Below the pieces are notes generated by a model that worked only from the letters and a program-made list of their open reading frames with translations, was not told the DNA's origin and searched no databases. This document shows positions 25,117-61,366 of a stretch of 64,000 bases of DNA, piece after piece. Source of the DNA: an uncultured Chitinophaga sp. (lineage in GTDB: Bacteria > Bacteroidota > Bacteroidia > UKL13-3). Numbering within the stretch: the first letter of the stretch is position 1; every line of letters begins with the position of its first letter. The stretch is from positions 16,480 to 80,479 of the forward strand of contig CAYHCF010000002.1 in NCBI GenBank assembly GCA_964355075.1. Reading direction: 5' to 3'. The position numbers and the translations under genes are program-made.

Positions 25117-25239
25117 TTCAAATTATGAGTTATGAGTTATGAATTTGATTTATTAATGTTTAACGGATAGGTGGAGATTGCATCTGCCCTTCATGGATGA
25201 AAACAATGTTTTAAATATAAAAAAAAATTATTAATTATT

Positions 25240-26544: not shown

Positions 26545-26712
26545 TTGGTAATCGGTAATTGGTAATTGGTAATTGGTAATTGGTAATCGGTAATTGGTCC
26601 CTTCGACAAGCTCAGGATGACAAATTTTGTTGTCATAGTGAGCCTGTCGAACTACGGTAATTGGTATTTGGTAATCGGTAATTGGTAATCGGTAATTGGT
26701 AATTGGTAATTG
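26541..26712. repeat. Composite repeat: 8 x GTAATYG heptamers, a 50-nt imperfect palindromic core, then 8 x GTAATYG heptamers
   Basis: Heptamer arrays at 26541-26596 and 26657-26712 lie in direct orientation. The core hairpin has arms 26602-26623 and 26630-26651 (22-nt arms, 3 mismatches). The first heptamer overlaps the bcrB-like stop codon. Confidence 0.9.
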
Positions 26713-26750
26713 GTTTAAAAAAAATAAATTAGCATATAAAATAGAATTAA

Positions 26751-28166: not shown

Positions 28167-28182
28167 AAATAAATAATAATAA

Positions 28183-29022
28183 ATGATGGAAAATTTTTAT
28201 ACAATGGGGATCGATGTGGGTTCTAATTTTATCAAACTTGTATTGGTAGATTACTCCAATAATCCTCAAATAATTGACAAGCACACTGAAAAGATCAGAA
28301 AGCGCAATCCTTCAGTTGTGGCTGAAGAATTGATTCAGGGGATGTTGACGAAAAACAATCTTCAATATGAAGACATTGCATATCTGGCTTCAACCGGTGA
28401 AGGAGATTTGGTAAAACGCAAACGAGGACATTTTTATGGAATGACCACACATGCCAAAGGAGCACACTATTTCTTTCCGGATGCCATTACCGTAGTGGAT
28501 ATGGGAGCGCTATATGTAAGAGCCATTAAAATGACGACAGATGCCCGCGTTCAGGATTATAAGATGACCGGTCAGTGCGCCTCCGGATCGGGACAATTTG
28601 TTGAAAACATTTCGCGCTATCTGGGACTGTCTATTGAAGAAGTAGGAGGTGTTTCCCTGCAAGCTGAAGCTCCCGAATTATCTTCCGGGATTTGTGCAGT
28701 ATTGGCTGAAACTGATGTAATCAATATGGTTTCAAGAGGAATTAAAACACCAAATATTATCAAAGGAATTCACCTCTCCATAGCCAGCAGAATCATTAAA
28801 CTACTAAGCTCCCTCAAGGCAGAATCTCCGATCGTTATTACCGGGGGGATGTCGTTGAATAGTGGCATGATACAGGCCATTGAAGAACAATTACTGGAAA
28901 CCGGGAAAAAATATGTTATCAAAACGCATCCCGACGCCATTTATGCAGGCGCAATCGGTGCGGCTTTGTGGGGAGGATTCAGGCATATTAAATTGAAGGA
29001 AAAGCAAGCTGAACTGGTATAA
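28183..29022 (+). CDS. bcrD: Benzoyl-CoA reductase subunit D-like ATPase (BcrAD/BadFG family)
   Basis: 279 aa. MGIDVGSNFIKLV, TGQCASGSGQFVEN, GICAVLAETDVIN and ITGGMSLN. Last gene of the C-B-A-D order. Confidence 0.65.
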   Translation: MMENFYTMGIDVGSNFIKLVLVDYSNNPQIIDKHTEKIRKRNPSVVAEELIQGMLTKNNLQYEDIAYLASTGEGDLVKRKRGHFYGMTTHAKGAHYFFPDAITVVDMGALYVRAIKMTTDARVQDYKMTGQCASGSGQFVENISRYLGLSIEEVGGVSLQAEAPELSSGICAVLAETDVINMVSRGIKTPNIIKGIHLSIASRIIKLLSSLKAESPIVITGGMSLNSGMIQAIEEQLLETGKKYVIKTHPDAIYAGAIGAALWGGFRHIKLKEKQAELV

Positions 29023-29157: not shown

Positions 29158-31290
29158 ATGGATTATCAGGGTGAGACAGAAAGTATTGGATCCATTGGAA
29201 TTGAAAACGAATTGGATTCCTTGTTTAAGCCAAAGTCTATTGCAATTATCGGGGCTTCATCAAAAGAACTATCTATCGGAAATGTTATCATTAAAAATCT
29301 GATTCATTTCGGGTTTACAGGAAAAATATTTCCGATTAATCCTAAGGAACCTGAAATTAGGGGAATTAAAGCTTATCCCTCTATATTGGACGTGGAAGAA
29401 AGCATTGATTTGGCGCATATCATTATTCCTTCCAAATTTGTTCCACAAATCATTGAAGAATGTGGTAAAAAGGGTGTTAAATCTGTTATCATAAACTCTG
29501 CAGGATTTAGTGAAATGGGCGAAGAAGGCATGGCACTTCAAAAAGCATTTCTAAGCAAAGCAAAAGAATATGGCATCAGGGTATTTGGCCCAAATTGCCA
29601 GGGGATTATCAATACAGATCCTGTGTATAAAGCCTATTGCGATTTCACCTTTACTTTTCCTGAACCGGGCTCTGTATCGATTGTTGCATTGAGCGGAGGT
29701 GTAGGAGCATTCATTATGCAAAGTTTGTTCGACCTTGAAATTGGAATGCGTTATTATGCCTCCAATGGAAATGCTTGTGATATCTCAATTTCGGAGGTTT
29801 TAGAATATTATGGCAATGATGAAGCTACCAAAGCAATCATTCTATATACCGAAGGATTTAAAAATCCAAGAGAATTCATGGAAGTAGCAAAGACTGTTGC
29901 AAAGAAAAAACCCATACTCGCAATGAAATCAGGCAGAACCGAAGAAGGGGCACAGGCTGCAGCTTCTCATACAGGTTCACTTGCCGGAGTTGATATTTCA
30001 ACTGAATTGATTTTTGAAAAAACAGGAATACTATCCTTTACGAACGAAGAAGAAATGTGTCAGGCAGCAAAAGCATTTTCTTCTCAACCCATTCCAAAAG
30101 GTAACCGGGTTGGTATTATTACCAATACAGGAGGTCCGGCTGTTATTGCCACTGATGAATTGGTAAATTCAGGTATGCATATCCCTCCCCTTTCTGAAAA
30201 AGCAAAAACCATATTACAACAAACTCTTTTGCCTGAAGCCAGTATAGGAAATCCAATTGATGTTGTGGCAACGGGTGGAGGAATTCATTTCAGAAGTGCT
30301 TTAGATGTAATGATGGATGAAGAACAAATTGATTCAGTTTTCATCAATTTTGTAACTGCCCCCTTTACGGATACAAATGAGGTTGCCAGAAATATTGTAG
30401 CAGTAAACCAACAAAAGAGAAAACCCATCATCTGCAATTTTATGACCAATATGAGTCTGGAGCGTTTTCAGGAAACTGCAAAAATTCTCAAAGATGGCGG
30501 AGTTCCCTGCTATAGCTTTCCAACCACCGCAGCCAAGGCTCTCGGGGCATTATATAAATACCATCAATTGCAATCCAGGTATATTGGTGTTCCAAAATAT
30601 TTTAATGATGTAAATAAAACAAAAGCAGATTCCATTTTGAACCAGGTAAACGTTACAGGAGAATTCCTTTCAAGTAGTCACGCATATGAATTGCTTTCAG
30701 CTTATGGGATTCCGGTTGCGGATTGGTGTATAGCTCATACGGTTGATGAGGCTATTACAGGTGCCAGAGAAATCGGATACCCTGTTGTAATCAAAGCGGA
30801 AACAAAATCATTGATACACAAAAGTGATCAGGGTGGCGTGGCAATTAATCTGATCAATGAAGAAGAGGTTCGATATGTAATTGAAAAGATGCAAGAGCAG
30901 TTTTTGGACAATGATTTGAAGTTTTTTGTTCAGAAATTTCTTCCCGGAGTGAAAGAATTAGTTGTGGGTGTGAGCGGACAAAGAGATTTGGAGCACCTGA
31001 TTATGTTTGGTTTGGGGGGGATTTATGTTGAAGTATTGAAAGATGTTGTATTCAAACTTTCTCCAATTACCGAATTGGAAGCGAATGAAATGATTTCATC
31101 GGTAAAAGCAGCAAAATTACTGGAAGGGGTAAGAGGGAAAAGTGGAATTGACAAGCGGAGTGTAATTGACATTATTCTTCGTATTTCTCAATTGGTAAAT
31201 GATTTCCCTCAAATAAAAGAAATGGATCTGAACCCGATTATGGCATTTGAGGACTGCGCGTATGTTGTGGATGCGAGGATTATGGTATAG
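29158..31290 (+). CDS. ADP-forming (NDP-forming) acyl-CoA synthetase, fused alpha-beta type
   Basis: 710 aa. CoA-binding Rossmann (IAIIGAS...GN), succinyl-CoA-synthetase-like ligase domain with phosphohistidine motif AASHTGSLAG, and a C-terminal ATP-grasp domain. Confidence 0.8.
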   Translation: MDYQGETESIGSIGIENELDSLFKPKSIAIIGASSKELSIGNVIIKNLIHFGFTGKIFPINPKEPEIRGIKAYPSILDVEESIDLAHIIIPSKFVPQIIEECGKKGVKSVIINSAGFSEMGEEGMALQKAFLSKAKEYGIRVFGPNCQGIINTDPVYKAYCDFTFTFPEPGSVSIVALSGGVGAFIMQSLFDLEIGMRYYASNGNACDISISEVLEYYGNDEATKAIILYTEGFKNPREFMEVAKTVAKKKPILAMKSGRTEEGAQAAASHTGSLAGVDISTELIFEKTGILSFTNEEEMCQAAKAFSSQPIPKGNRVGIITNTGGPAVIATDELVNSGMHIPPLSEKAKTILQQTLLPEASIGNPIDVVATGGGIHFRSALDVMMDEEQIDSVFINFVTAPFTDTNEVARNIVAVNQQKRKPIICNFMTNMSLERFQETAKILKDGGVPCYSFPTTAAKALGALYKYHQLQSRYIGVPKYFNDVNKTKADSILNQVNVTGEFLSSSHAYELLSAYGIPVADWCIAHTVDEAITGAREIGYPVVIKAETKSLIHKSDQGGVAINLINEEEVRYVIEKMQEQFLDNDLKFFVQKFLPGVKELVVGVSGQRDLEHLIMFGLGGIYVEVLKDVVFKLSPITELEANEMISSVKAAKLLEGVRGKSGIDKRSVIDIILRISQLVNDFPQIKEMDLNPIMAFEDCAYVVDARIMV

Positions 31291-31339: not shown

Positions 31340-32560
31340 ATGTATAAAATTCAAACAAGCAAATTAATGAAGGAAATAATGGCAAATTATTTCCTGGGAA
31401 TGAAAGATCCATCAAAAAAAATTGCATGGTGTACGAGTGTTGGCCCTGCTGAACTATTACGCTCATTTGGTTTTGAGGTTCATTTTCCTGAAAATCACGG
31501 TGCCTTATTGGGAGCTACCCGAACGGCGAATGATTTGATTCCTGAATCAGCCATTTTGGGATATTCCAATGATATTTGCTCTTATTTAACTGCAGATATC
31601 GGTTCCTACTTAACCAAACAGACTCCATTAAAAGAGCACTATGGATTAAATGGACCCCCAAGACCTGACCTGATTGTATATAATACCAATCAATGCCGCG
31701 AGGTACAGGATTGGTTCACTTATTTTGCAAGAGAGTTGAATTGCCCGATATTTGGCATTAACCCACCCAGACATGTAACGGAAGTAACACAGGAGGAGAT
31801 TGAAGATGTTGCCTCTCAATTCAAAGCTATGATACCTGTATGTGAAAAGGCAAGCGGCTTAAAATTTGATATCGACCGATTTAGGGAAGTGTTAAAATTA
31901 AGCAAGGAAGCAACCGATTTATGGAAGAAGGTATTGAATACAGCCACTATTTCTCCTGCTCCCATCAGCTTTTTTGATGCCACCATACATATGGGACCCA
32001 TCGTGGTTTTAAGGGGAACAGAGATTGCGAAAGTATATTACGAAACGCTCCTGAGTGAATTAGAAGAAAACGTAAAAAAAGGAATGGGATTTTTAGAAAA
32101 AGAAAAGTCTCGTATATACTGGGATGGGATGCCCATCTGGGGTAAATTGAGATCCTTGTCTGATTTATTTATTCAAAATAATTCGGCAGTGGTAGCTTCC
32201 ACTTATTGTAACAGCTGGATATTTGATGCATTTGATGAAAGAAATCCTTTTGAGTCATCTGCAAAAGCGTATACTGAGATATTTATTAATAGAAGCGAAG
32301 AAGCCAAGCAGAAAATACTCAGTAATCTCGTTCACGATTTCCACGTGGATGGAATGATATTCCATGATGCCAAAACATGCTCTAATAACTCGAACTCAAG
32401 ATTTGGAATGCCTCAGCGAATATCGGAAACACTTGGAATTCCAACCCTGGTCATTGAGGGTGATTTGTGCGATTTGCGATTTTATTCGGAAGGTCAGAGT
32501 GTCACTAAAATTGAAACATTTATTGAGCAGATCGAAAGCTCAAACGTATTCAGTCAATAG
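31340..32560 (+). CDS. Stand-alone 2-hydroxyacyl-CoA dehydratase/BCR-family (D-component-like) protein
   Basis: 406 aa. Family-typical N-terminus (KKIAWCTSVGPAELLRSFGFEVHFPENH). 8 Cys, including WCTS, ICSY, QCRE, YCNS, TCSN and LCDL. No partner subunit gene is adjacent. Confidence 0.7.
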   Translation: MYKIQTSKLMKEIMANYFLGMKDPSKKIAWCTSVGPAELLRSFGFEVHFPENHGALLGATRTANDLIPESAILGYSNDICSYLTADIGSYLTKQTPLKEHYGLNGPPRPDLIVYNTNQCREVQDWFTYFARELNCPIFGINPPRHVTEVTQEEIEDVASQFKAMIPVCEKASGLKFDIDRFREVLKLSKEATDLWKKVLNTATISPAPISFFDATIHMGPIVVLRGTEIAKVYYETLLSELEENVKKGMGFLEKEKSRIYWDGMPIWGKLRSLSDLFIQNNSAVVASTYCNSWIFDAFDERNPFESSAKAYTEIFINRSEEAKQKILSNLVHDFHVDGMIFHDAKTCSNNSNSRFGMPQRISETLGIPTLVIEGDLCDLRFYSEGQSVTKIETFIEQIESSNVFSQ

Positions 32561-32575
32561 AATATTTACCTTAAT

Positions 32576-33049
32576 ATGGTTCTTATGAAAAATGATGATT
32601 TTCAGGAAAAGCAGGTATTCAAACTTTCAACAGGAGAAAAGGTAAACAATGCCGAAATTGAAAAACTTATTGAAAATACCTGTCATTATGTAAAGTTTGT
32701 GACGTTGAGTGATGGAGAAAATGAAAACCATGTTGCTTTAATTTTTCCAAACATAGAATTGCTGAACAATCCGAATTATAAATTAACCCCTGACGAAGGC
32801 TGCTTTTGTCCCCGAAACCTTACAGAACTCGGGAGGTGTTTGTCCGGTTGTATGAATAATGTTAACAAGCAACTGGAACCAGGTTCAGGAACAATTATTT
32901 CTACCCGCATCTTGAATGAGGATAAAAATAAAGCAGAATCATACCAGACTCCTGAAAACATAAACAAAACACTCAAAACTTTTCTAAAGGATTTGATTGA
33001 TGATGTTGATACCTCTGAAAATGAAACATACTATATCCCATCCTTGTAA
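32576..33049 (+). CDS. Hypothetical small Cys-rich protein
   Basis: 157 aa with CFCPRN...GRCLSGC. The N-terminal half (STGEKVNNAEIEKLIE...HVALIFPNIELL) loosely resembles the C-terminal subdomain of AMP-forming long-chain acyl-CoA synthetases. Compactly packed between neighbours on the same strand. Confidence 0.35.
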   Translation: MVLMKNDDFQEKQVFKLSTGEKVNNAEIEKLIENTCHYVKFVTLSDGENENHVALIFPNIELLNNPNYKLTPDEGCFCPRNLTELGRCLSGCMNNVNKQLEPGSGTIISTRILNEDKNKAESYQTPENINKTLKTFLKDLIDDVDTSENETYYIPSL

Positions 33050-33091: not shown

Positions 33092-34942
33092 ATGATGGAA
33101 AAATCAGAAAAACTAAAAGTCGGAGTGGTAGGATTAGGTCCTGTTGGAATGATTCTGGCAGTCAAATTAAAAGAGGCTGACTGCGAAGTTTCGATATGCG
33201 ATAAAGATGATTTTAAACTTAAAAAAATAAGAGAAAGCGGTATTGTATTAGAAAATGCCATTGAATCGAGTACCCGTTTCGAACGGATTTTTGATTCGAT
33301 TGTGGATATGAGATCTCAGGATCTTGATTACCTCATTTTCGCTTTAAAATCTTATCAAACAATAGGAGCTGTTAAAGAGGCTGAGTTATTAAATACAGAA
33401 AAACTCACTTTGGTTTCGGCTCAAAATGGGATAGATGTAGAACAGCTAATTACGGCAACTTTTGGCGAATCCAAAACGCTGCGCATGATTGTAAATTTTG
33501 CCGGAAATATGAAATCCGCAAATACAGTAAAGGTTTCTTTTGTAAATCCTCCAAATTATTTAGGTTCGGTTGATGACAGCAGAACAAAGGAAGCGATTAT
33601 TCTTGCTGAAACTTTGAATAAAGTTGGATTCAGAACTGAAAAATTAGATTCTTTTGACCTGGTAAAAAGCATTTGGCAGAAAACAATTTTAAATGCATCT
33701 TTAAGTGCTTTATGCGGTGTGGGCAGGTTAACTATGGCTGAGGCTATGGCTGATAATGATACAATGGAACTCGTTGAACAAATCATGAATGAGGGAATTG
33801 AGGTTGCCGAAAAGGAGAAGATTCGTTTTGCAGATGATTTTGTTAGAAAATGCATGCAATATCTTAAAAAGGGGGGCGACCATTTTCCCTCATTATCTGT
33901 TGACTTAATAAATAACCGGCCCACCGAAATAGATTTTTTTAATGGAAAAATTGTTGAATATGGCAAAAAGCATTATGTAAAAACTTCTCTAAACCTGGCA
34001 TTTACAAATATGGTGAAGGCCATGACCAATAAAAATGTATTAAACCGGTTTCCCGGTATTGATGAAGAATTATATAAAAAAATTATCAATAAAGGAATGA
34101 TTGAAAAGAGTCGTTCCACTATTTATTATAAAGAACATGATTGCTTCCTTGGAATTGACTTAGGATCGGCATTTACCAAGTTTAATATTATTGATGGGAA
34201 CTCCAATCCCGTGTTCAGGTATATTTTACCTACCATGAACAAAGACCGGAATGCCATGAAAAATGTTCTGAAATCAATTTATGCTTCCTTCCAGATTAAA
34301 CATAGTTGCGCAACCGGTTATGGCAGGAAACATTTTACAGAAACAGATATTATAAAAACAGAAATAAACTGTGCGGCTGTTGGGGTGGGTGAATTTTTCC
34401 AGGGAGAGAAAAATATCATTGATATTGGAGGAGAAGATATTAAGATCATTCATACCAATCAAGAGAATTTTGTTGCAAATTTTTACATGAACGACAAATG
34501 TGCTGCAGGTACCGGCGCTTTTCTGGAAGAAATTTCGGAGAGAGCAGAAATAAATAACGGCGAAATGAGTAGTCTGGCAGCACATTCGTCATTTGATAAA
34601 GAGTTAAATAGTTTCTGTACGGTATTTGCTAAAACCGAGATCATGAGTTGGGTATTTGAAGGCATGATGAAACAAGACATTGCAAGAGGAATCTATATTT
34701 CAATCGCCAATAAAGTAGCGAAAATGAAACTATTCCCAAATATTCCTACTTATTTAATCGGAGGCGTGGTAGCCCATCATCCCTATCTTGGAAATATTTT
34801 AAGCGAAAAATTCCATAAAGAAATACACGCGCTCGACAATCCCCAATATATTGTTGCACACGGTGCTGCTATTTTGGCTAAAGAAAACTGGCTTTTAAAC
34901 AATCCTAAAGAATTCATTATTTCAGAATCCATAACAAATTAA
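33092..34942 (+). CDS. Fusion protein: ketopantoate reductase (ApbA/PanE)-like NAD(P)-binding oxidoreductase plus HgdC/BcrAD-type activase ATPase
   Basis: The N-terminal region of about 320 aa has VGVVGLGPVGMILAVKL (Rossmann) and a PanE-like C-terminal helical part (...TEIDFFNGKIV). The C-terminal region of about 270 aa has FLGIDLGSAFTKF, DIGGEDIKII, MNDKCAAGTGAFLEE and SFCTVFAKTE. Confidence 0.7.
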   Translation: MMEKSEKLKVGVVGLGPVGMILAVKLKEADCEVSICDKDDFKLKKIRESGIVLENAIESSTRFERIFDSIVDMRSQDLDYLIFALKSYQTIGAVKEAELLNTEKLTLVSAQNGIDVEQLITATFGESKTLRMIVNFAGNMKSANTVKVSFVNPPNYLGSVDDSRTKEAIILAETLNKVGFRTEKLDSFDLVKSIWQKTILNASLSALCGVGRLTMAEAMADNDTMELVEQIMNEGIEVAEKEKIRFADDFVRKCMQYLKKGGDHFPSLSVDLINNRPTEIDFFNGKIVEYGKKHYVKTSLNLAFTNMVKAMTNKNVLNRFPGIDEELYKKIINKGMIEKSRSTIYYKEHDCFLGIDLGSAFTKFNIIDGNSNPVFRYILPTMNKDRNAMKNVLKSIYASFQIKHSCATGYGRKHFTETDIIKTEINCAAVGVGEFFQGEKNIIDIGGEDIKIIHTNQENFVANFYMNDKCAAGTGAFLEEISERAEINNGEMSSLAAHSSFDKELNSFCTVFAKTEIMSWVFEGMMKQDIARGIYISIANKVAKMKLFPNIPTYLIGGVVAHHPYLGNILSEKFHKEIHALDNPQYIVAHGAAILAKENWLLNNPKEFIISESITN

Positions 34943-34944
34943 TT

Positions 34945-36207
34945 ATGAAATCCTATCACGATAAAGACAAAGGTATTGCCATTTCATTTGACGATATCTA
35001 TTTAGTAAACGGAGTAAGAACTCCTTTTGGAAAATTTTGCGGAACCTTGGCAAATGTATCTCCTACAGATTTGGGGATATTCGCGTCAAAGGCTGCATTA
35101 AAAAAATCGGGAATTGAGCCTGACGATATTGATCAGGCCATTATAGCGAATATCGGACAAGCCTCTGGCGATGCCTATTTTCTTCCAAGGCATATCTCCT
35201 TATTTGCCGGGTTACGTATGACCGTTCCCTCATTAATGGTGCAGAGAATCTGTGCTTCAGGATTTGAAACACTCATTACTGCCGCCGAACAGATTACTTT
35301 AAATAAAGCAGGATCTGTTTTATGTTGTGGAACCGAAAACATGTCGCTTGCACCCACCGTAAGCTTTGGAAACCGGATGGGTTATGCTCTGGGAAGACCT
35401 GTTTTTAAAGATATGTTGTGGGAAGCTTTAGATGATACCGCTGCCGGATATCCAATGGGGTTTACGGCAGAAAATGTTGCCAAAAAACATCAAATCACCC
35501 GGGAACAATGCGATGAATTTGCATACCTGTCCTTTCAAAGAGCTTTGAATGCACAAAATAAGGAAATCTTTAAAGATGAAATTACTCCCATTAATTCAAC
35601 CGTGTTTGAAATAGAAGGGTTGAAACCAAGAAAGGTTCGTTTACCGGGTGGTGTTAAAAATTTTATAACGGATGAACAGATTCGCGATACTTCCATTGAA
35701 TCTCTAGCAAAATTACCAACCGTATTTTCTGAAGTTGGTGTTTTAACCCCGGGAAATTGCAGCGGTATCGTTGATGGAGCGGGTGCAGCTGTGGTTGCTG
35801 ATGCGAATACGGTTAAATCGAAGAATTTGAAACCCATCGCAAAAATTGTAGCTGCTGCCAGTTGCGGTATTGACCCAAAAATAATGGGATTGGCTCCTGT
35901 ACCTGCCATTCAGTTACTTCTCGAATTTACCGGATTAAAGATAGAGGATATCGGTTTGTTTGAAATAAATGAAGCATTTTCAGCACAGTTGATTGGTTGT
36001 GAAATCGAACTTGGACTAGACCGGGATAAACTAAATGTGAATGGGGGTGCCATCGCAATCGGGCATCCTTTGGCAGCATCGGGATTAAGACTTTCCTTAA
36101 CCATTATCCGTGAAATGAATTTGAGAAACATTAAATACGGAATTGCATCAGCTTGTATTGGAGGCGGACAAGGAACCGCGATTTTATTTGAAAATATTAA
36201 TCTATAA
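34945..36207 (+). CDS. Acetyl-CoA C-acyltransferase (thiolase)
   Basis: 420 aa. VQRICASGFE (active Cys), NEAFSAQ, NVNGGAIAIGHPLAASG and ACIGGGQGTA. Confidence 0.9.
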   Translation: MKSYHDKDKGIAISFDDIYLVNGVRTPFGKFCGTLANVSPTDLGIFASKAALKKSGIEPDDIDQAIIANIGQASGDAYFLPRHISLFAGLRMTVPSLMVQRICASGFETLITAAEQITLNKAGSVLCCGTENMSLAPTVSFGNRMGYALGRPVFKDMLWEALDDTAAGYPMGFTAENVAKKHQITREQCDEFAYLSFQRALNAQNKEIFKDEITPINSTVFEIEGLKPRKVRLPGGVKNFITDEQIRDTSIESLAKLPTVFSEVGVLTPGNCSGIVDGAGAAVVADANTVKSKNLKPIAKIVAAASCGIDPKIMGLAPVPAIQLLLEFTGLKIEDIGLFEINEAFSAQLIGCEIELGLDRDKLNVNGGAIAIGHPLAASGLRLSLTIIREMNLRNIKYGIASACIGGGQGTAILFENINL

Positions 36208-36210
36208 TAA

Positions 36211-37275
36211 ATGGAACAAAATAAAATGTATCAGTGGCAAATGACTGAATTGGATAAGCCATTTGTTTTATCGGAGAGTGTATTGCCTGAAACAAAATCA
36301 GGAGAGGCTCTGGTAAAAATAGCCGGTTGCGGAGTGTGTCATACCGATATCAGCTTTTGGCATCATGGTGTTCAAACCAAACATGCTTTACCCTTAACAC
36401 TCGGACACGAAATAAGCGGAACTGTAATTGCAGGTGACGAAAAATGGATTGGCAAAAAGGTGATTATTCCCGCTGTTCTTCCCTGTGGAGAATGTGAGCT
36501 ATGTTTGACCGGCAGGAGTAATATTTGCAGAAGTCAATTAATGCCCGGAAACGATTTTGACGGAGGTTTTGCTTCCCACATAAAAGTACCTTCCAGATAT
36601 TTATGCGAGGTTCCGGATAAAGTTTTGGAAAAATATTCGCTTGAACAGTTATCTGTTATCGCTGATGCTATTTCAACTCCTTACCAGGTGGTAAAGAAAT
36701 CGGAACTGGTTGCCGGAGATTTTGCAATTGTGATCGGTGTGGGTGGAGTTGGTATTTATGGGGCGCAGATCGCAAAAATATTTGGAGCAAAAGTTTTAGC
36801 CCTTGATATAAGTGATGAGAAATTAGAAATTGCCAAGCAAAATGGCGTTGATGCCACGCTCAACACAAAAGGACTCGACTTTAAAACCATCAAAGAGAAA
36901 GTGAAGGAGATTGCCAAAGAAATAAAGGCTCCAAAATATGGTTGGAAAATATTAGAAATTTCCGGAACCAAAGCCGGACAAGACCTGGCTTTTAACCTGA
37001 TTACTTTTGCCTCAACCCTTTCTATTGTTGGTTTTACGATGGATAAAGTGGAAGTTCGCTTAAGTAACCTGATGGCCTATGATGCAAAATTAATCGGAAC
37101 CTGGGGATGCAAACCTGAATTATATCCCGAGGTAGTTGAACTGGTGGCACAAGACAAACTAAAAATTGATCCCTTCATCGAAACTTTTCCAATGTCACTG
37201 ATTAATGAAGTTTTTAAAAATACGCTCGAACATAAATATACCAAAAGATCTGTTTTAATACCTGACTTTAATTAA
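36211..37275 (+). CDS. had: Zn-dependent alcohol dehydrogenase family; candidate 6-hydroxycyclohex-1-ene-1-carbonyl-CoA dehydrogenase
   Basis: 354 aa MDR. GCGVCHTD, GHEISG and the structural Zn site CGECELCLTGRSNIC. Position is immediately upstream of the Oah/BamA-like and Dch-like genes. The family call is firm; the substrate call is contextual. Confidence 0.55.
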   Translation: MEQNKMYQWQMTELDKPFVLSESVLPETKSGEALVKIAGCGVCHTDISFWHHGVQTKHALPLTLGHEISGTVIAGDEKWIGKKVIIPAVLPCGECELCLTGRSNICRSQLMPGNDFDGGFASHIKVPSRYLCEVPDKVLEKYSLEQLSVIADAISTPYQVVKKSELVAGDFAIVIGVGGVGIYGAQIAKIFGAKVLALDISDEKLEIAKQNGVDATLNTKGLDFKTIKEKVKEIAKEIKAPKYGWKILEISGTKAGQDLAFNLITFASTLSIVGFTMDKVEVRLSNLMAYDAKLIGTWGCKPELYPEVVELVAQDKLKIDPFIETFPMSLINEVFKNTLEHKYTKRSVLIPDFN

Positions 37276-37284
37276 ATTAAAAAA

Positions 37285-38385
37285 ATGGAAGAATTAAAAA
37301 ATCACAATATAGTTGATGTAAACTATAAAGAAATCATTTTCGAAAAACGTCCTTGCCTGGATAAGGATGGAACACCGGTTGATAAATTATTCAATGCCTG
37401 GATCATTATCAATAATCCAAAACAATTTAATTCGTACACTACGGCTGCCATAAAGGAATTAATACTTGCATTTCGGCAGGCTTCAAATGACCGAAGTGTT
37501 GTTGCTGTTGTTCTGACTTCGGTTGGTGATAAAGCATTTTGTACCGGTGGAAACACCAAAGAATATGCAGAATACTATGCAGGAAATCCCCAGGAATATT
37601 CACAATACATGCGTTTATTCAATGATATGGTTTCAACTATTCTGATGTGTGAAAAACCGGTTATCTGCCGTGTAAACGGAATGAGAATTGGCGGCGGTCA
37701 GGAAATTGGAATGGCTTGCGATTTTAGCGTTGCAAGTGATATGGCCAGATTTGGACAAGCAGGGCCAAAACATGGCAGTGCGGCTATAGGCGGAGCCACC
37801 GACTTTCTACCGCTATACGTTGGAGTTGAACGCGCTATGATGTCGTTAACCTTGTGTGAGCCATGGACAGCACATCAGGCTTATTATTATGGGGTTATTA
37901 CTGATATCGCTCCGGTTTTAAAAGCAGATGGGAAATTTATTGCCAATCCTTTGGTTCAAACAGAAAAAATAATGGACGAATATGGCAAGATTTCTTTTGG
38001 AACCATGAAAACAGGTGATGAACTCGCCAAAGCAAAGGAAATTGTTTCCAAATGTGAGACTGATTTAAGCATGCTGGATAAGGCCGTGAATAGCCTGATT
38101 TCAAAAATATTGCATACCTTCCCTAATTGTATGAGTAAAACCATCAGTGAGGTTCGCAAGTTTAAATTGGAACATTGGGATAAAAATAAAGAAGGAAGCC
38201 GCGAATGGCTGGCTTTAAATATGATGAGCGAAGCAAAAGCAGGATTCAAAGCATTTAATGATGGGCCTAAAGATAACAGGGAAGTTAATTTTATTTTATT
38301 AAGGCAATTACTTGCTGAAGGTCATGAGTGGAATGAGGAATTACATCATGCTATTTCACCGCAGTATCAGGCGTCAAATAATTAG
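37285..38385 (+). CDS. oah: Long crotonase-family protein; candidate 6-oxocyclohex-1-ene-1-carbonyl-CoA hydrolase (ring-cleaving, BamA/Oah)
   Basis: 366 aa, about 100 aa longer than ordinary enoyl-CoA hydratases. VGDKAFCTGGN and CRVNGMRIGGGQEIGMACDF resemble the Oah/BamA core as I recall it. Flanked by had-like and dch-like genes. Confidence 0.6.
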   Translation: MEELKNHNIVDVNYKEIIFEKRPCLDKDGTPVDKLFNAWIIINNPKQFNSYTTAAIKELILAFRQASNDRSVVAVVLTSVGDKAFCTGGNTKEYAEYYAGNPQEYSQYMRLFNDMVSTILMCEKPVICRVNGMRIGGGQEIGMACDFSVASDMARFGQAGPKHGSAAIGGATDFLPLYVGVERAMMSLTLCEPWTAHQAYYYGVITDIAPVLKADGKFIANPLVQTEKIMDEYGKISFGTMKTGDELAKAKEIVSKCETDLSMLDKAVNSLISKILHTFPNCMSKTISEVRKFKLEHWDKNKEGSREWLALNMMSEAKAGFKAFNDGPKDNREVNFILLRQLLAEGHEWNEELHHAISPQYQASNN

Positions 38386-38387
38386 AT

Positions 38388-39161
38388 ATGGAAAAAATAC
38401 AGGTAACATATTTATACGAAGATTCAGTTGTACGTATTCTGTTAAATGATGGTAAAGGTAATGTGCTCGACCACATCATGATGGAGGAATTGCAGGCAGT
38501 TTTGAATTCTTTTAGCACCGCCAATCAATTAAAGTTGATCATTTTTGAGGGTTCCGGGAAACATTTTTCATTTGGAGCCAGTGTGGAAGAGCATCAAAAA
38601 GATATGGCAGGAGCCATGCTTTCGTCGTTTCACAAATTATTTTATACGCTGCGTGATTTATCCATTCCAACTCTTGCAAAAATTACAGGACAATGCCTCG
38701 GAGGTGGAATGGAACTTGCCATCATGTGCAATTTTCTTTTTGCGGATCAAACTGCAAAATTTGGGCAACCCGAAATTATTCTGGGTGTATTCCCCCCTCC
38801 GGCATCAATTATTTTATCAGAAAAAATTGGTCTGGCCAGGGCAGAAGAATTGATAATTACCGGAAAAACGATAGGTGCTGAAGAAGCAAAAAACAGTGGT
38901 TTACTGAATTATTTATTTGAGGACAAAGCTGCTCTTGAAACCGGAACAAATGAATGGATAGAGCAGAATATCCTTCCAAAAAGTGCGTCTTCACTCAGAT
39001 TTGCCAACAAAGCAGTAAGACTAAAATTCAACCATTTACTTTCAAACTTCTTACCCCAGTTAGAACAATTGTACGTTAACAGTTTAATGGAAACAAATGA
39101 TGCCAATGAAGGGATCTGTTCATTTTTAGAAAAAAGAAAACCTCTTTGGAAAAATAATTAA
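38388..39161 (+). CDS. dch: Crotonase-family protein; candidate cyclohexa-1,5-diene-1-carbonyl-CoA hydratase
   Basis: 257 aa. KGNVLD...GSGKHFSFGASVEEH...GQCLGGGMELA. Context next to oah-like/had-like and bcr-like genes. Confidence 0.55.
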   Translation: MEKIQVTYLYEDSVVRILLNDGKGNVLDHIMMEELQAVLNSFSTANQLKLIIFEGSGKHFSFGASVEEHQKDMAGAMLSSFHKLFYTLRDLSIPTLAKITGQCLGGGMELAIMCNFLFADQTAKFGQPEIILGVFPPPASIILSEKIGLARAEELIITGKTIGAEEAKNSGLLNYLFEDKAALETGTNEWIEQNILPKSASSLRFANKAVRLKFNHLLSNFLPQLEQLYVNSLMETNDANEGICSFLEKRKPLWKNN

Positions 39162-39171
39162 CCTTAATACT

Positions 39172-41169
39172 ATGGAATCGTTAAAAACAGTTGGTGTTGT
39201 GGGAGCAGGTACGATGGGTTCAGCCCTCACTCAGAAATTTGCCCAGGAAGGATTTAAGGTTATTCTGGCAGACAGGACAATCAGCTTTGTAGACAGAGGA
39301 ATTAATGGCATAAAATCGAGTTTACAGGAAGGAATTCAAAAAAAGGTTTTTACAGAAGAACAAGCTGGTAAAACCCTCAGCAATATTTCCGGCACAGAAA
39401 ATCTGGAAGACTTAAAAGCTTGTGATATTGTTATTGAAGCCATATTTGAAAATTTTGATGCAAAAATTGATTTGTTTAAAAACCTATCAAATGTGTTATC
39501 CGATACTTGTATCATCGCAACCAATACTTCTTCTTTTTCAGTTAATGAATTAAGTGAATATGTAAAAAATCCTGAACGCTTTATTGGCTTGCATTATTTT
39601 TACCATGCGGCAAAAAATCGTCTGGTGGAAATTATCCCGAACAAAAAAACTTCTGCAGGTGTTATCGAAAGTGCCCGGCGTTTTTCGTTTATTTCAGGGA
39701 AAGATGCCATTTATTGTAAGGATTCCTACGGTTTTGTGGTAAACCGTTATTTTGTTCCCTGGTTGAATGAAGCTTGCAGGCTTCTGGAAGAAAATATTGG
39801 AAATATTCCTACCATTGATTCCGTTTGTTCAGAAAAATTTGGTGTAAGCATGGGTCCATTTGCATTAATGAATGCCACCGGAGTTCCCATTACCTATCAT
39901 TCCCAAAAAACACTTGAAGTATTTGGTGAACTCTATAAAACCTCAGAAATATTAAGGATTCAAACTGAATTAAACCAGCCATGGAGCCTTGAAGGAGAAG
40001 TATTGGCTGATGATGTGATCAGAAAAGAAATAGCGGAGCGGATGATCGGAATTGAATTTTTGGTATGTTCACAATTGCTTGAAGAAGAAACCTGCTCAGC
40101 CACCGAAATAAATCGTGGTGCCCGCATCGGTTTAAAATGGAGATCCGGCCCCATTGAATTAATGAGTAGATATGGCGAGGCAGAGACTCAAAGATTCGTA
40201 TCTTTAATAGCTAAAAGATACAATACCCCTGTTCCAGCTACGGTGGATTCAAGTTTCTGGAAACAAGCGTATGTATTATATGAAAAATGGGGTAAAAATG
40301 TTACCCTTACCATGTCGAGACCTGAAGATCTGAACGCACTTAATGAAGAGGTAATCAAACAACTTTTGGAAAAATTTACCATAGCTGATACAGATCCTGA
40401 AGTTGAAAATATCTTTTTGGTTGGTTCCGGAAAAGCCTTTGTTGCCGGCGCCGATATTAAATTTTTTGTTAAACACATGAAGGCGCTTTCCTTCGATAAA
40501 ATTGAAACCTTTACCCGATTCGGTCAGGACGTACTTGAAAGGATTGACCAATCAAACAAAAAGGTTATTGTTATTTTAAATGGAATGGCCTTAGGTGGAG
40601 GCTTAGAGCTGGCATTATGTGCCGACCTGATTGTGGCACTTCCAGGTGCAACTATGTCATTCCCGGAAACCGGTATTGGAATCTATCCGGGTTTGGGAGG
40701 AACACAGAGAAGCGCAAGAAGAATTGATAAAGCATTGAGTAAATACATGATTCATACCGGAAAGACATTAAGTGCAAAAGATGCTTTTGAAATTGGATTA
40801 GTAGATAAGGTCATTTCTGTTGAAGAAATGTTCGATTTGATTTATGGAAATATGGAATTACCTGCTCCTAATAAACCTGTCCTGAATGAAAAATGGCTCG
40901 CCATCAAGAATTTTTTCGAGGATCATAAGCTCGCTGAATTGCTCTCGCATCAGATTCACGATACACTGATTTCTAAAGAAGAAGCGGATCGCATTTGTAA
41001 AACATTGGCATTTAAAGCGCCTCTTGCTTTGCAATATGCCGACAAATTAATTGAAGATGCAAAAGGCTGCGCAGATGAATTGAATTATTTAACCAAAATT
41101 TTCAGCACGCAGGACGCATTGCTGGGATTGACTTCAATTGGAAAGCGGGTTGAATTTAAAGGGCACTAG
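39172..41169 (+). CDS. Bifunctional 3-hydroxyacyl-CoA dehydrogenase (N-terminal) / enoyl-CoA hydratase (C-terminal)
   Basis: 665 aa. VGVVGAGTMGSALTQ Rossmann and 3HCDH C-domains, then a crotonase fold (GSGKAFVAGADIKFF, LGGGLELALCAD, ETGIGIYPGLGGTQR). Confidence 0.85.
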   Translation: MESLKTVGVVGAGTMGSALTQKFAQEGFKVILADRTISFVDRGINGIKSSLQEGIQKKVFTEEQAGKTLSNISGTENLEDLKACDIVIEAIFENFDAKIDLFKNLSNVLSDTCIIATNTSSFSVNELSEYVKNPERFIGLHYFYHAAKNRLVEIIPNKKTSAGVIESARRFSFISGKDAIYCKDSYGFVVNRYFVPWLNEACRLLEENIGNIPTIDSVCSEKFGVSMGPFALMNATGVPITYHSQKTLEVFGELYKTSEILRIQTELNQPWSLEGEVLADDVIRKEIAERMIGIEFLVCSQLLEEETCSATEINRGARIGLKWRSGPIELMSRYGEAETQRFVSLIAKRYNTPVPATVDSSFWKQAYVLYEKWGKNVTLTMSRPEDLNALNEEVIKQLLEKFTIADTDPEVENIFLVGSGKAFVAGADIKFFVKHMKALSFDKIETFTRFGQDVLERIDQSNKKVIVILNGMALGGGLELALCADLIVALPGATMSFPETGIGIYPGLGGTQRSARRIDKALSKYMIHTGKTLSAKDAFEIGLVDKVISVEEMFDLIYGNMELPAPNKPVLNEKWLAIKNFFEDHKLAELLSHQIHDTLISKEEADRICKTLAFKAPLALQYADKLIEDAKGCADELNYLTKIFSTQDALLGLTSIGKRVEFKGH

Positions 41170-47639: not shown

Positions 47640-47650
47640 GGGGTAATAAA

Positions 47651-49956: not shown

Positions 49957-49969
49957 GGAAAATAAAACT

Positions 49970-50314: not shown

Positions 50315-50323
50315 CAAACTGGT

Positions 50324-61225: not shown

Positions 61226-61318
61226 TCTTTAAATACCATATTTCGCCATTGTCCCAATAATCACAATGAAAATATTAAATTTATAATATACTTATATTTA
61301 ATATTTTATAATATTATT

Positions 61319-61355
61319 ATGGAATTATTTGGAATTGAATTACAAATAATTCCAT
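61319..61355. promoter_or_regulatory. 12-bp perfect inverted repeat just upstream of the ATPase gene (possible operator)
   Basis: atggaattattt (61319-61330) and aaataattccat (61344-61355), with a 13-nt spacer, ending 12 nt before ATG 61367. Confidence 0.3.
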
Positions 61356-61366
61356 ATATTTGAAAC

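What the first reader, a model, noticed from the sequence alone, without database searches (positions are those of the whole stretch)
33092..34942. Unusual domain fusion: NAD(P)-dependent ketopantoate-reductase-like domain joined to an HgdC-type electron-transfer ATPase
I know of no characterised activase of the BCR/HAD family that carries an N-terminal dinucleotide-binding oxidoreductase. The activase half keeps both cluster Cys (DKCAAGTG, FCTVFA) and the ATP-binding motifs, and the N-terminal half has an intact GxGxxG. The fusion either co-localises a 2-oxoacid reductase with its downstream dehydratase activator, or it links pyridine-nucleotide chemistry to the activator. The second reading would be energetically surprising, because activators normally need ferredoxin or flavodoxin.
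Basis: partly seen in the sequence, partly recalled or inferred. Interest (0 to 1): 0.7.

Follow-up and report, generated by a model that had tools for sequence, protein, structure and literature searches.

The report
Dehydrogenase fused to radical-enzyme activator
A real, widely conserved gene in Bacteroidota and related phyla joins an NAD(H)-type 2-oxoacid reductase to the ATP-driven iron-sulfur "activator" of a neighbouring radical enzyme, inside an anaerobic benzoate-degradation operon; this marks an undescribed extra module of that pathway.

Summary
ORF 33092-34942 (616 aa) is one continuous protein: ApbA/ApbA_C (ketopantoate-reductase family) + flexible ~40-aa linker + BcrAD_BadFG (HgdC/HadI-type activator).

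It is not a frameshift artefact. The identical ORF is present in 8 independently assembled contigs, and the same architecture occurs in at least 143 species genomes of the FCB group (Bacteroidota, Ignavibacteriota, Calditrichota, Marinimicrobia).

Catalytic residues of both halves are invariant across the family.

The gene always sits beside a single catalytic-type HGD-D gene and an acyl-CoA synthetase or ligase. These lie inside a Thauera-type class I benzoyl-CoA reductase operon (bcrCBAD ... thiolase-had-oah-dch).

In related genomes the two halves are separate genes, either adjacent or about 4.4 kb apart in the same operon. The fused state appears in several lineages with different linker lengths, which makes this a Rosetta-stone fusion.

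Best reading: a D-2-hydroxyacid dehydrogenase fused to the activator of a 2-hydroxyacyl-CoA-dehydratase-like enzyme. Together they would form a peripheral route into benzoyl-CoA, possibly from arylpyruvate or aryllactate. The substrate is not established.

Direct NAD(P)H-to-activator electron transfer is not supported.

Verdict: a new variant of known kinds, of moderate interest.

The parts
33092..34942 (+). Fusion ORF, 616 aa: KPR-like dehydrogenase + linker + HgdC/HadI-type activator
   Evidence: The identical ORF is on 8 independent contigs.
33116..34030 (+). N-terminal ketopantoate-reductase-family domain (residues 9-313). Holds GxGxxG at 33131-33148, Asn112, Lys197/Asn201 (33674-33694), Ser267/Asp271 (33887-33904) and Glu279 (33920-33934).
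   Evidence: Pfam ApbA + ApbA_C and TIGR00745 above cutoff. These residues are invariant in 42 fusion proteins. The closest solved folds are D-mandelate dehydrogenases, at 24-25% identity.
34031..34141 (+). Linker (residues 314-350), Lys-rich and poorly conserved
   Evidence: AF2 pLDDT is below 50 at residues 315-323, with pTM 0.53 although both domains score above 90. Alignment columns are variable.
34142..34885 (+). C-terminal activator (archerase) domain, residues 351-598. Cluster Cys470 (34499-34501) and Cys509 (34616-34618). ASKHA ATP motifs at 34151-34168, 34421-34438 and 34757-34774.
   Evidence: BcrAD_BadFG and TIGR00241 above cutoff. Best PDB sequence hits are HadI 4eht (122 bits), DCCP-R, MbdQ and HgdC, with TM 0.80-0.86. 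The Cys residues and motifs are invariant.
31340..32560 (+). Single catalytic-type HGD-D protein (406 aa), the presumed client of the activator
   Evidence: Pfam HGD-D. Sequence hits: HadB 174 bits, MbdO 132, BzdO 75; 29% identity to the window's BcrB. AF2 pTM 0.87; fold match to HadB TM 0.88-0.90. Five invariant Cys: C31, C80, C119, C290, C347. It neighbours the fusion in nearly all loci.
32576..33049 (+). 157-aa ORF: free-standing homologue of the C-terminal domain of an AMP-forming acyl-CoA ligase
   Evidence: 44% identity to residues 420-553 of the 585-aa ligase of L025. Present in arrangement-A1 loci at 36-54% identity.
29158..31290 (+). ADP-forming acyl-CoA synthetase (710 aa, fused alpha-beta)
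   Evidence: Pfam CoA_binding, Succ_CoA_lig and ATP-grasp_5. Best NCBIfam hits are ADP-forming hydroxyacid-CoA ligases, below cutoff. Replaced by an AMP-forming ligase at the same position in 42 loci.
23953..29022 (+). bcrC, bcrB, bcrA, bcrD: Thauera-type class I benzoyl-CoA reductase
   Evidence: TIGR02263 457 bits and TIGR02260 697 bits, both above cutoff. BcrA and BcrD give the best hits for their subunits but fall below cutoff.
34945..36207 (+). Thiolase, starting 2 nt after the fusion's stop codon
   Evidence: The fusion-thiolase or activase-thiolase adjacency is conserved.
36211..41169 (+). had, oah, dch and a 3-hydroxyacyl-CoA dehydrogenase/enoyl-CoA hydratase: the lower benzoyl-CoA pathway
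   Evidence: TIGR03201 462 bits and TIGR03200 584 bits, both above cutoff. TIGR03189 is the best hit for dch. Pfam 3HCDH_N + ECH_1.
44745..48604 (+). 4-hydroxybenzoyl-CoA-reductase-like Mo enzyme (fused gamma-alpha 964 aa, plus beta 317 aa)
   Evidence: TIGR03194, TIGR03193 and TIGR03195 are the best hits, all below cutoff. A similar enzyme sits next to the Marinimicrobia fusion.

Best explanation
The ORF is a genuine two-enzyme (Rosetta-stone) fusion.

Its N half is an active NAD(H)-preferring member of the ketopantoate-reductase family. I read it as a D-2-hydroxyacid dehydrogenase that interconverts a free 2-oxoacid and its (R)-2-hydroxyacid.

Its C half is an HgdC/HadI-type 'archerase'. It would dimerise around a bridging [4Fe-4S] cluster and use ATP hydrolysis to inject a low-potential electron into the [4Fe-4S] site of the HGD-D protein encoded two genes upstream.

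Together with the adjacent acyl-CoA synthetase or ligase, these parts give the three steps of a 2-hydroxyacid route:
1. 2-oxoacid to (R)-2-hydroxyacid.
2. (R)-2-hydroxyacid to 2-hydroxyacyl-CoA.
3. 2-hydroxyacyl-CoA to enoyl-CoA.

The co-transcribed hydratase/dehydrogenase and thiolase would then beta-oxidise the product towards benzoyl-CoA for the bcrCBAD reductase. The most likely substrates are arylpyruvate/aryllactate (Phe- or Tyr-derived), but this is the weakest step.

Shown here: the architecture, its conservation, intact active-site residues, synteny, and unfused orthologues.
Inferred: enzyme activities, dimerisation, the HGD-D client, dehydratase chemistry and the substrate.

I read the fusion as ensuring co-expression and co-localisation, not as a new electron path.
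For: Architecture and integrity.

Invariant residues in 42 fusion proteins down to 37% identity:
- N half: G16/G19, N112, K197, N201, S267, D271, E279. In the PaKPR2-NADP-ketoisocaproate complex the equivalent Ser266 binds the substrate carboxylate and Lys196/Asn200 act in catalysis.
- C half: both cluster Cys (C470, C509) and the ATP motifs.

Nearest relatives of each part:
- The closest solved relatives of the N half are D-mandelate dehydrogenases, which are NADH-dependent reductases of bulky 2-oxoacids.
- An acidic residue ends beta-2 in 33 of 42 sequences, which fits NAD(H) preference.
- The C half matches HadI, HgdC, MbdQ and DCCP-R.
- The HGD-D keeps the three HadB/BzdO cluster Cys and the PEN Glu. 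Its closest fold and length match is HadB, at TM 0.88-0.90.

Synteny. In 80 GTDB loci and 42 metagenome loci, the synthetase/ligase, HGD-D, KPR-like and activase genes travel together inside bcr-had-oah-dch operons in three gene orders.

Fusion states:
- Fused in 89 sequences.
- Adjacent separate genes, each with its own stop and start (e.g. L083, L084, L086).
- About 4.3-4.6 kb apart in 13 loci.

The fused state occurs in several branches, with linkers of roughly 10, 24 and 40 aa.

AF2 shows two well-folded domains and a disordered tether.

N-terminal fusions onto activase domains have precedent: HGD-D + activase proteins and class III DCCPs.
Against: - Only one HGD-D gene is present. Characterised 2-hydroxyacyl-CoA dehydratases are alpha-beta heterodimers.
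- There is no CoA-transferase.
- By sequence the HGD-D is as similar to BcrB (173 bits) as to HadB (174 bits).
- The HGD-D carries two extra invariant Cys (C31, C290) of unknown role.
- No ferredoxin or flavodoxin gene is in the window.
- Aminotransferase and IOR-like genes that would point to aromatic amino acids occur in only 1-2 loci.
- The module is so tightly tied to bcr that a core role, rather than a peripheral one, cannot be excluded.
- Two fusion genes lack HGD-D and bcr within reach: L081 (1.2 kb upstream, about 9.6 kb downstream) and L053 (10 kb each side).
- No activity has been measured for any family member.
Confidence: 0.5

Rival explanations
1. The single HGD-D plus the activator half form a second ATP-consuming reductase, not a dehydratase. 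It would act on an aryl-CoA or enoyl-CoA of the benzoyl-CoA pathway, either as a homodimer like DCCP or by borrowing BcrC as the electron-relay subunit. The KPR-like half would catalyse an unrelated neighbouring redox step.
For: - The HGD-D is a catalytic O/B-type subunit, 29% identical to BcrB and close to MbdO.
- There is one HGD-D gene plus one ATPase gene, as in DCCP/DCCP-R.
- The module is always embedded in bcr operons.
- Two extra invariant Cys sit on cavity-forming loops and could be proton or H-atom donors.
- No beta subunit is present.
Against: - Length and best fold match are to HadB rather than to the longer BCR beta subunits.
- The ATPase is encoded by a single gene. That implies a homodimer, as in dehydratase activators, whereas BCRs use BcrA/BcrD heterodimers.
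- The recurrent fusion and linkage with a 2-oxoacid reductase and a CoA ligase is the canonical logic of hydroxyacid dehydration.
- The DCCP Cys motif is not met: NF040772 scores 60 bits against a cutoff of 350.
Confidence: 0.2
2. The module runs the hydroxyglutarate pathway at the bottom of the benzoyl-CoA route, linking glutaconyl-CoA, (R)-2-hydroxyglutaryl-CoA, 2-hydroxyglutarate and 2-oxoglutarate. It would connect ring-cleavage products with 2-oxoglutarate.
For: - The same enzyme logic applies: dehydrogenase, thioester enzyme, HGD-D and activator.
- The link to the core pathway genes is tight.
- An ADP-forming synthetase could run in the ATP-forming direction.
- In Thauera, 2-oxoglutarate:ferredoxin oxidoreductase supplies the electrons for BCR (my own knowledge).
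Against: - In 42 loci the synthetase is replaced by an AMP-forming ligase, which is effectively irreversible.
- No glutaryl-CoA dehydrogenase, glutaconyl-CoA decarboxylase or 2-oxoglutarate oxidoreductase was found in the window.
- The closest dehydrogenase relatives prefer bulky or aromatic 2-oxoacids.
Confidence: 0.1
3. The dehydrogenase half passes reducing equivalents from NAD(P)H, or from its substrate, to the activator's [4Fe-4S] cluster, replacing ferredoxin or flavodoxin.
For: - The fusion is covalent and recurrent.
- No ferredoxin gene is in the operon.
Against: - There is no flavin, Fe-S or other one-electron module between the nicotinamide site and the cluster.
- The substrate-binding residues of a normal 2-oxoacid reductase are invariant.
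- In relatives the orthologues are separate genes 4.3-4.6 kb apart.
- The tether is disordered and no interface is predicted.
- The step would be strongly uphill: NAD(P)H at about -320 mV against an activator donor at about -450 mV or lower (my own knowledge).
Confidence: 0.04
4. The fusion is an assembly or sequencing artefact, or an incidental fusion of the housekeeping pantothenate enzyme PanE with no functional link to the activator.
For: - Public annotation names the protein '2-dehydropantoate 2-reductase'.
- TIGR00745 is passed at subfamily level.
Against: - The identical ORF is in 8 independent contigs.
- At least 143 species genomes carry the fusion.
- All equivalog-level PanE models fail, e.g. 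NF005091 117 bits against a cutoff of 252.
- The position inside bcr operons is conserved whether the halves are fused or not.
- The fused state appears in several lineages.
Confidence: 0.02

Closest known systems
HadI / HgdC / FldI activators of 2-hydroxyacyl-CoA dehydratases (PDB 4eht, 1hux)
   Same: The C half has the same fold (TM 0.82-0.84 relative to the target) at 30-31% identity. It keeps both cluster Cys and the ASKHA ATP motifs. It is a single-gene ATPase encoded next to an HGD-D protein.
   Different: It carries a 350-residue N-terminal KPR-like dehydrogenase plus linker. It lies in a respiratory benzoyl-CoA operon of FCB bacteria rather than an amino-acid fermentation operon of Clostridia or Fusobacteria. 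Its client is a single HGD-D gene.
[quoted passage not shown]
   Same: The N half gives its best sequence and fold matches to these enzymes. It has the same catalytic Lys/Asn/Glu and carboxylate-binding Ser. The beta-2 end is mostly NAD(H)-type.
   Different: Identity is only 24-25%. It is fused to an Fe-S ATPase. Its substrate is unknown.
Phenyllactate / 2-hydroxyisocaproate dehydratase systems (FldH-FldABC-FldI; LdhA-HadA-HadBC-HadI)
   Same: The pathway logic is the same: 2-oxoacid reductase, CoA activation, HGD-D radical enzyme and ATP-dependent activator. HadB is the closest solved relative of the HGD-D.
   Different: - The dehydrogenase belongs to the KPR family, not the 2HADH family.
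- A synthetase or ligase stands in place of a CoA-transferase.
- There is one HGD-D subunit instead of an alpha-beta pair.
- The product would be oxidised (beta-oxidation to benzoyl-CoA) rather than reduced.
DCCP / DCCP-R and class III DCCPs (HGD-D fused to its reductase)
   Same: There is one HGD-D gene plus one homodimeric ATPase gene. There is precedent for an N-terminal fusion onto the ATPase domain.
   Different: The 6/7-Cys double-cubane motif is absent: there are 5 invariant Cys with other spacing, and NF040772 scores 60 against a cutoff of 350. The fusion partner here is a dehydrogenase, not the client.
Class I benzoyl-CoA reductase ATPase subunits BcrA/BcrD (BzdP/Q, MbdP/Q)
   Same: The same ATPase family. 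The gene is encoded in the same operon as a complete bcrCBAD.
   Different: It does not reach the BcrA, BcrD or BzdQ equivalog scores: 92 against 578, 58 against 313, and 78 against 380. It is a single gene rather than a heterodimer pair.

Membership tests
Ketopantoate reductase / ApbA family (PF02558 + PF08546; TIGR00745) | Both Pfam domains and the subfamily model score above their curated cutoffs | tested here: met
   ApbA 69 bits (cutoff 22), ApbA_C 101 bits (cutoff 23), TIGR00745 156 bits (cutoff 141)
Ketopantoate reductase / ApbA family (PF02558 + PF08546; TIGR00745) | GxGxxG dinucleotide fold and the catalytic Lys/Asn/Glu plus the carboxylate-binding Ser | tested here: met
   G14-G19, N112, K197, N201, S267 and E279 are invariant in 42 sequences. 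The roles of the equivalent residues come from PaKPR2. The E. coli PanE numbering is from memory.
Bona fide 2-dehydropantoate 2-reductase (PanE equivalogs) | Score above an equivalog-level NCBIfam cutoff | tested here: not met
   All PanE equivalog models fall far below cutoff, e.g. NF005091 117 against 252 and NF005092 100 against 500
Bona fide 2-dehydropantoate 2-reductase (PanE equivalogs) | Ketopantoate reduction, or a role in pantothenate synthesis | not testable with these tools
   Needs an enzyme assay or genetics. The genomic context is a benzoyl-CoA operon, not pantothenate genes.
HgdC/HadI-type activators (archerases; PF01869, TIGR00241) | Domain model above cutoff and an ASKHA fold | tested here: met
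   BcrAD_BadFG 113 bits (cutoff 31.5), TIGR00241 165 bits (cutoff 125). TM 0.80-0.86 to HadI, HgdC, MbdQ and DCCP-R.
HgdC/HadI-type activators (archerases; PF01869, TIGR00241) | Two conserved Cys per monomer that bridge a [4Fe-4S] cluster in a homodimer | tested here: inconclusive
   C470 and C509 are present, invariant, and aligned with the DKCAAGTG and CTVFA motifs of HadI. Cluster binding and dimerisation cannot be tested in silico here.
HgdC/HadI-type activators (archerases; PF01869, TIGR00241) | Encoded with an HGD-D family client | tested here: met
   An HGD-D gene lies within about 0.6 kb upstream in the window. It is adjacent or in the same operon in almost all loci. Exceptions are L053 and L081.
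2-Hydroxyacyl-CoA dehydratase systems | Heterodimeric alpha-beta HGD-D pair | tested here: not met
   Only one non-Bcr HGD-D ORF is found per locus in 104 loci. Sensitivity to very distant HGD-D proteins is limited.
2-Hydroxyacyl-CoA dehydratase systems | Catalytic subunit with a 3-Cys [4Fe-4S] site and the conserved Glu | tested here: met
   C80, C119 and C347 align with the HadB Cys, and the PEN Glu51 aligns with HadB Glu55. Best fold match is HadB.
2-Hydroxyacyl-CoA dehydratase systems | Family III CoA-transferase and a 2HADH-type dehydrogenase in the operon | tested here: not met
   Neither was found. An ADP-forming synthetase or AMP-forming ligase and a KPR-type dehydrogenase stand in their place.
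Class I benzoyl-CoA reductase ATPase subunits (BcrA/BcrD) | Equivalog-level match to BcrA, BcrD or BzdQ | tested here: not met
   TIGR02259 92 against 578, TIGR02261 58 against 313, TIGR03192 78 against 380. Genuine bcrA and bcrD lie upstream.
Double-cubane cluster proteins (client side) | 6/7-Cys motif CX19CX18-19CX29CX166-170CX32-34CX32C | tested here: not met
   Five invariant Cys with spacings of 49, 39, 171 and 57 residues, compared with the published motif. NF040772 scores 60 against a cutoff of 350.

The most novel reading that the evidence does not exclude
The dehydrogenase half is not just a passenger. It would gate or fuel the activator, so that substrate or NAD(H) turnover at the KPR-like site controls, or even supplies, the electron that the ATPase half injects into the single-subunit HGD-D enzyme. 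That would give a ferredoxin-independent, pyridine-nucleotide-linked ketyl-radical enzyme in facultatively aerobic FCB bacteria.
Probability: 0.04. Interest if true: 0.9.

Novelty: new variant of a known kind. Interest (0 to 1): 0.52.

Why it matters

This finding shows a third conserved set of such genes: one catalytic-type HGD-D with five invariant Cys, an activator, a KPR-type dehydrogenase and a CoA synthetase or ligase. The set is wired into the benzoyl-CoA operons of at least 143 species of Bacteroidota, Ignavibacteriota, Calditrichota and Marinimicrobia, many of them from lakes and oceans. The recurrent fusion of the dehydrogenase to the activator ties the parts together.

If the module is a hydroxyacid-dehydratase route, it would be an undescribed way of feeding 2-oxo or 2-hydroxy acids (possibly Phe/Tyr-derived) into anaerobic aromatic degradation, and it would conserve the side chain as acetyl-CoA.

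It would also give the first single-subunit member of the dehydratase branch.

Finally, public annotation as '2-dehydropantoate 2-reductase' is misleading for hundreds of proteins.

Tried and rejected
- **Frameshift artefact.** Rejected: identical ORF on 8 independent contigs and hundreds of full-length homologues.
- **Link to aromatic amino acids through neighbouring genes.** In L025 a HisC-type aminotransferase and an IOR-alpha-like TPP protein follow the fusion. tblastn shows these in only 1-2 of about 120 loci, so I dropped this as evidence.
- **Looking for a beta-type HGD-D partner.** None found within 10 kb in any locus.
- **Looking for a ferredoxin gene in the window.** Only SdhB carries a CxxCxxCxxxC motif.
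- **Classifying the HGD-D as dehydratase or reductase by sequence.** Scores to HadB and to BcrB are equal. Fold and length slightly favour HadB.
- **Mapping the two extra Cys onto the double-cubane motif.** The spacing does not fit.
- **Context of the most divergent fusion, P0124.** Uninformative: ribosomal, SecY, ClpB and NifU genes.
- **Literature.** Four of the six full-text searches looked for a description of this fusion, or of bcr operons in FCB bacteria, and found none. The library lacks most subscription papers.
- **NJ tree of the KPR domain.** It is crude, with no support values, so 'several independent fusions' is tentative. The differing linker lengths support it.
Full report
**1.

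The window has a single ATG-to-stop ORF at 33092..34942 (+), 616 aa.

- Pfam places ApbA at residues 10-158, ApbA_C at 190-311 and BcrAD_BadFG at 353-596.
- NCBIfam passes the curated cutoffs of TIGR00745 (apbA_panE, 156 against 141 bits) and TIGR00241 (acyl-CoA dehydratase activase, 165 against 125 bits).

**2. It is not a merged pair of genes**

- The exact 616-aa product is encoded on eight contigs from independent assemblies. These include two ENA assemblies at 48x and 9x coverage and Logan assemblies of raw runs.
- More than 240 protein clusters at 90% identity, 598-634 aa long, have the same three domains.
- A scan of one genome per GTDB species found 143 loci. The 80 loci kept were 60-84% identical, and all of them were fused.

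Record titles and source names place these genomes in the FCB group:
- Chitinophagales
- Flavobacteriales, including Vicingaceae, Crocinitomicaceae and Parvicellaceae
- Saprospiraceae, Cytophagales and Arcticibacter
- Ignavibacteria, a Chlorobiota MAG and Calditrichaeota
- Marinimicrobia, for a short-linker form (P0122)

A 'Bifidobacterium' bin and a 'Legionellales' bin are probably mis-binned.

**3. Anatomy of the protein**

I aligned 42 fusion proteins, reaching down to 37% identity.

- In the N half the invariant residues are the dinucleotide-fold glycines, N112, K197, N201, S267, D271 and E279.
- These correspond to the catalytic Lys/Asn/Glu and the carboxylate-binding Ser of ketopantoate-reductase-family enzymes.
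  - In the PaKPR2-NADP-ketoisocaproate complex these are Lys196, Asn200 and Ser266.
  - The E. coli numbers K176, N180, S244 and E256 are from my memory.
- In the C half the invariant residues are both cluster Cys (C470, C509) and all three ATP motifs.

An acidic residue ends strand beta-2 in 33 of 42 sequences, which suggests NAD(H) rather than NADP(H) (inference).

AlphaFold2 gives both domains pLDDT above 90. The segment 315-323 is disordered and pTM is only 0.53, so the model is two beads on a flexible, poorly conserved, Lys-rich tether.

No PDB chain covers both halves:
- The C half superposes on HadI, HgdC, MbdQ and DCCP-R (TM 0.80-0.86, 30-35% identity).
- The N half is closest to the D-mandelate dehydrogenases of Enterococcus and Lactobacillus (24-25% identity).
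- It is further from true ketopantoate reductases (17-21% identity).

All equivalog-level PanE models fail. The public name '2-dehydropantoate 2-reductase' is therefore not warranted.

**4. Context in the window**

The gene lies in a tightly packed + strand operon. Intergenic gaps from the HGD-D gene to the 3HCDH/ECH gene are 2-42 nt. The gene order is as follows:

| Gene | Coordinates |
|---|---|
| bcrC-bcrB-bcrA-bcrD (Thauera-type class I benzoyl-CoA reductase) | 23953-29022 |
| ADP-forming acyl-CoA synthetase | 29158-31290 |
| a single HGD-D protein | 31340-32560 |
| a 157-aa ORF | 32576-33049 |
| the fusion | 33092-34942 |
| thiolase | 34945-36207 |
| had | 36211-37275 |
| oah | 37285-38385 |
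| dch | 38388-39161 |
| 3-hydroxyacyl-CoA dehydrogenase/hydratase | 39172-41169 |

Downstream are MobA, XdhC, an SDR and a 4-hydroxybenzoyl-CoA-reductase-like Mo enzyme.

**5. Comparative genomics**

Across 80 genome loci and 42 metagenome loci, four genes travel together inside bcr-had-oah-dch operons: the synthetase or ligase, the HGD-D, the KPR-like gene and the activase. They occur in several gene orders:

- **A1**, as in the window.
- **A2**, where a 585-aa AMP-forming ligase replaces the ADP-forming synthetase (42 loci).
- **A3**, in Bacteroidota MAGs: bcrCBAD-synthetase-KPR-had-oah-dch-HGD-D-activase-thiolase. Here the KPR-like and activase genes are separate and 4.3-4.6 kb apart (13 loci).
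- **A contiguous four-gene block**, activase-HGD-D-synthetase-KPR, in L092 and L099.
- **Adjacent but separate genes.** In another clade the two genes are adjacent, each with its own stop and start codon, and the junction sequences differ between contigs (L083, L084, L086, L088, L119).

A rough neighbour-joining tree of the KPR domain puts fused proteins in at least three or four branches. These are the main clade, L115/L116, P0124 and the Marinimicrobia P0122. The linkers differ at about 40, 24 and 10 residues.

The fusion is therefore recurrent, or has been repeatedly split. That is the classic signature of two proteins working in one process.

**6. The partner HGD-D**

- By sequence it is equally close to HadB (174 bits) and to the window's own BcrB (173 bits, 29% identity), followed by MbdO (132 bits).
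- Its AF2 model (pTM 0.87) is closest in fold and length to HadB (TM 0.88-0.90). MbdO, BzdO and DCCP follow, and the accessory N/C/beta subunits are last at TM about 0.70. This makes it a catalytic-type subunit.
- It keeps the three Cys and the Glu that hold and serve the substrate-facing [4Fe-4S] cluster in HadB and BzdO.

Two things are unusual:
- No second (beta/N/C-type) HGD-D gene is present in any locus apart from bcrC.
- Two further Cys (C31, C290) are invariant in 93 family members but absent from HadB and from the window's BcrB.
  - In the model they sit on strand-helix linkers. In this fold those linkers form the cluster and substrate cavity.
  - Their spacing does not fit the double-cubane motif.

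**7. Most likely mechanism (inference)**

A KPR-family enzyme reduces a free 2-oxoacid to the (R)-2-hydroxyacid, which is the stereochemistry that HGD-D dehydratases need. The synthetase or ligase makes the CoA thioester.

The activator half would dimerise and be reduced by a ferredoxin or flavodoxin encoded elsewhere. It would then use ATP to inject one electron into the HGD-D cluster, and the HGD-D would eliminate water through a ketyl radical.

The resulting enoyl-CoA would be hydrated, oxidised and thiolysed by the co-transcribed enzymes. The thiolase gene starts 2 nt after the fusion's stop codon.

A ligase in place of the clostridial CoA-transferase makes sense if the enoyl-CoA is consumed rather than recycled.

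Aryllactates (from phenylpyruvate or 4-hydroxyphenylpyruvate) are the most attractive substrates, for three reasons:
- Their products, cinnamoyl- and coumaroyl-CoA, beta-oxidise to benzoyl- and 4-hydroxybenzoyl-CoA.
- The nearest solved dehydrogenases take bulky aromatic 2-oxoacids.
- A 4-hydroxybenzoyl-CoA-reductase-like enzyme recurs nearby.

The substrate assignment is weak, however. The aminotransferase and IOR-like genes seen in L025 are not conserved.

**8. Rivals**

- **A second ATP-dependent reductase.** The HGD-D would act as a homodimer or together with BcrC. The sequence data cannot exclude this.
- **A reversed hydroxyglutarate route to 2-oxoglutarate.** This is disfavoured by the AMP-forming ligase variants and by the lack of the companion enzymes.
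- **Electron flow from NAD(P)H to the activator.** This is disfavoured by the absence of any one-electron cofactor module, the intact 2-oxoacid site, the unfused and distant orthologues, and the disordered tether.
- **Artefact, or an incidental PanE fusion.** Effectively refuted.

**9. Comparison with what is known**

Each half is an ordinary member of a known family. The combination is not represented among solved structures. It was also not found in the searchable literature.

The system works like a 2-hydroxyacyl-CoA dehydratase pathway but fails three of that system's defining features: the alpha-beta pair, the CoA-transferase and the 2HADH-type dehydrogenase. I therefore do not file it as a member of that system.

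It shares the 'one HGD-D gene plus one ATPase gene' layout with DCCP/DCCP-R but lacks the double-cubane motif.

**10. Verdict**

This is a real and widespread fusion that has been overlooked and is misannotated in public records. It flags an undescribed ketyl-radical module attached to class I benzoyl-CoA reductase operons of FCB bacteria. It is a new variant of known kinds and of moderate interest. The biochemistry, especially the substrate, the single-subunit HGD-D and its two extra Cys, remains to be shown.

Noticed in passing
window 31340-32560: The HGD-D next to the fusion is a lone catalytic-type subunit with five invariant Cys. Three are the HadB/BzdO cluster ligands. C31 and C290 are extra: they are absent from HadB and BcrB, and they sit on cavity-forming strand-helix linkers in the AF2 model. 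Their role is unknown.
   Followed up: partly
window 32576-33049: The 157-aa ORF is a free-standing copy of the C-terminal domain of the 585-aa AMP-forming ligase that occupies the synthetase position in other genomes (44% identity). It is kept as an ORF in arrangement-A1 loci but is only 36-54% identical there, while its neighbours are 70-90% identical. It could be a relic or an accessory subunit.
   Followed up: partly
window 29158-31290; L025 7037-8794: There is a non-orthologous replacement at the same operon position directly after bcrD. Some genomes have an ADP-forming (NDP-forming) acyl-CoA synthetase, and 42 loci have an AMP-forming ligase.
   Followed up: partly
window 19375-23700: A 1441-aa protein with two BcrAD_BadFG ATPase domains plus DUF2229 lies directly upstream of bcrC. 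No homologue above 45% identity was found in the short stretch (about 0-3 kb) visible upstream of bcrC in the related loci.
   Followed up: no
window 42620-48604: MobA, XdhC, an SDR and a 4-hydroxybenzoyl-CoA-reductase-like molybdenum enzyme with fused gamma-alpha subunits (964 aa) plus a beta subunit. The best hits are the 4-HBCR equivalogs, but they fall below cutoff. A similar Mo enzyme follows the Marinimicrobia fusion cluster (L125).
   Followed up: no
window 19000-49000: No ferredoxin gene is in or near the bcr operon. The only CxxCxxCxxxC motif in the window is in SdhB at about 8.4 kb. In Thauera a ferredoxin gene follows bcrD (my own knowledge). The electron donor of this BCR and of the activator is therefore open.
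   Followed up: partly
P0145 (Asgard archaeal MAGs): A KPR-like domain fused to a crotonase (ApbA + ApbA_C + ECH_1, 619 aa) occurs in Hermodarchaeota and Promethearchaeota MAGs. This is another KPR-family fusion to a CoA-ester enzyme.
   Followed up: no
L053 10001-13115; L081 1164-2993: Two exceptions to the synteny. L053 has the fusion plus a thiolase, with no bcr or HGD-D within 10 kb. L081 (P0124, 39-40% identity) stands alone among housekeeping genes.
   Followed up: partly
window 8900-11578, 13119-18752 (-), 55702-59637: Large secreted proteins with CHU_C or Por_Secre_tail type IX secretion signals, one of them carrying many Ig-like repeats. This fits a Bacteroidota origin for the window.
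   Followed up: no
window 49919-50872, 60638-62530: Two tandem ORF6N-domain genes, a Uma2-family endonuclease and an AAA_14/DUF4143 ATPase lie downstream of the aromatic cluster. They may be mobile-element or defence-related genes.
   Followed up: no
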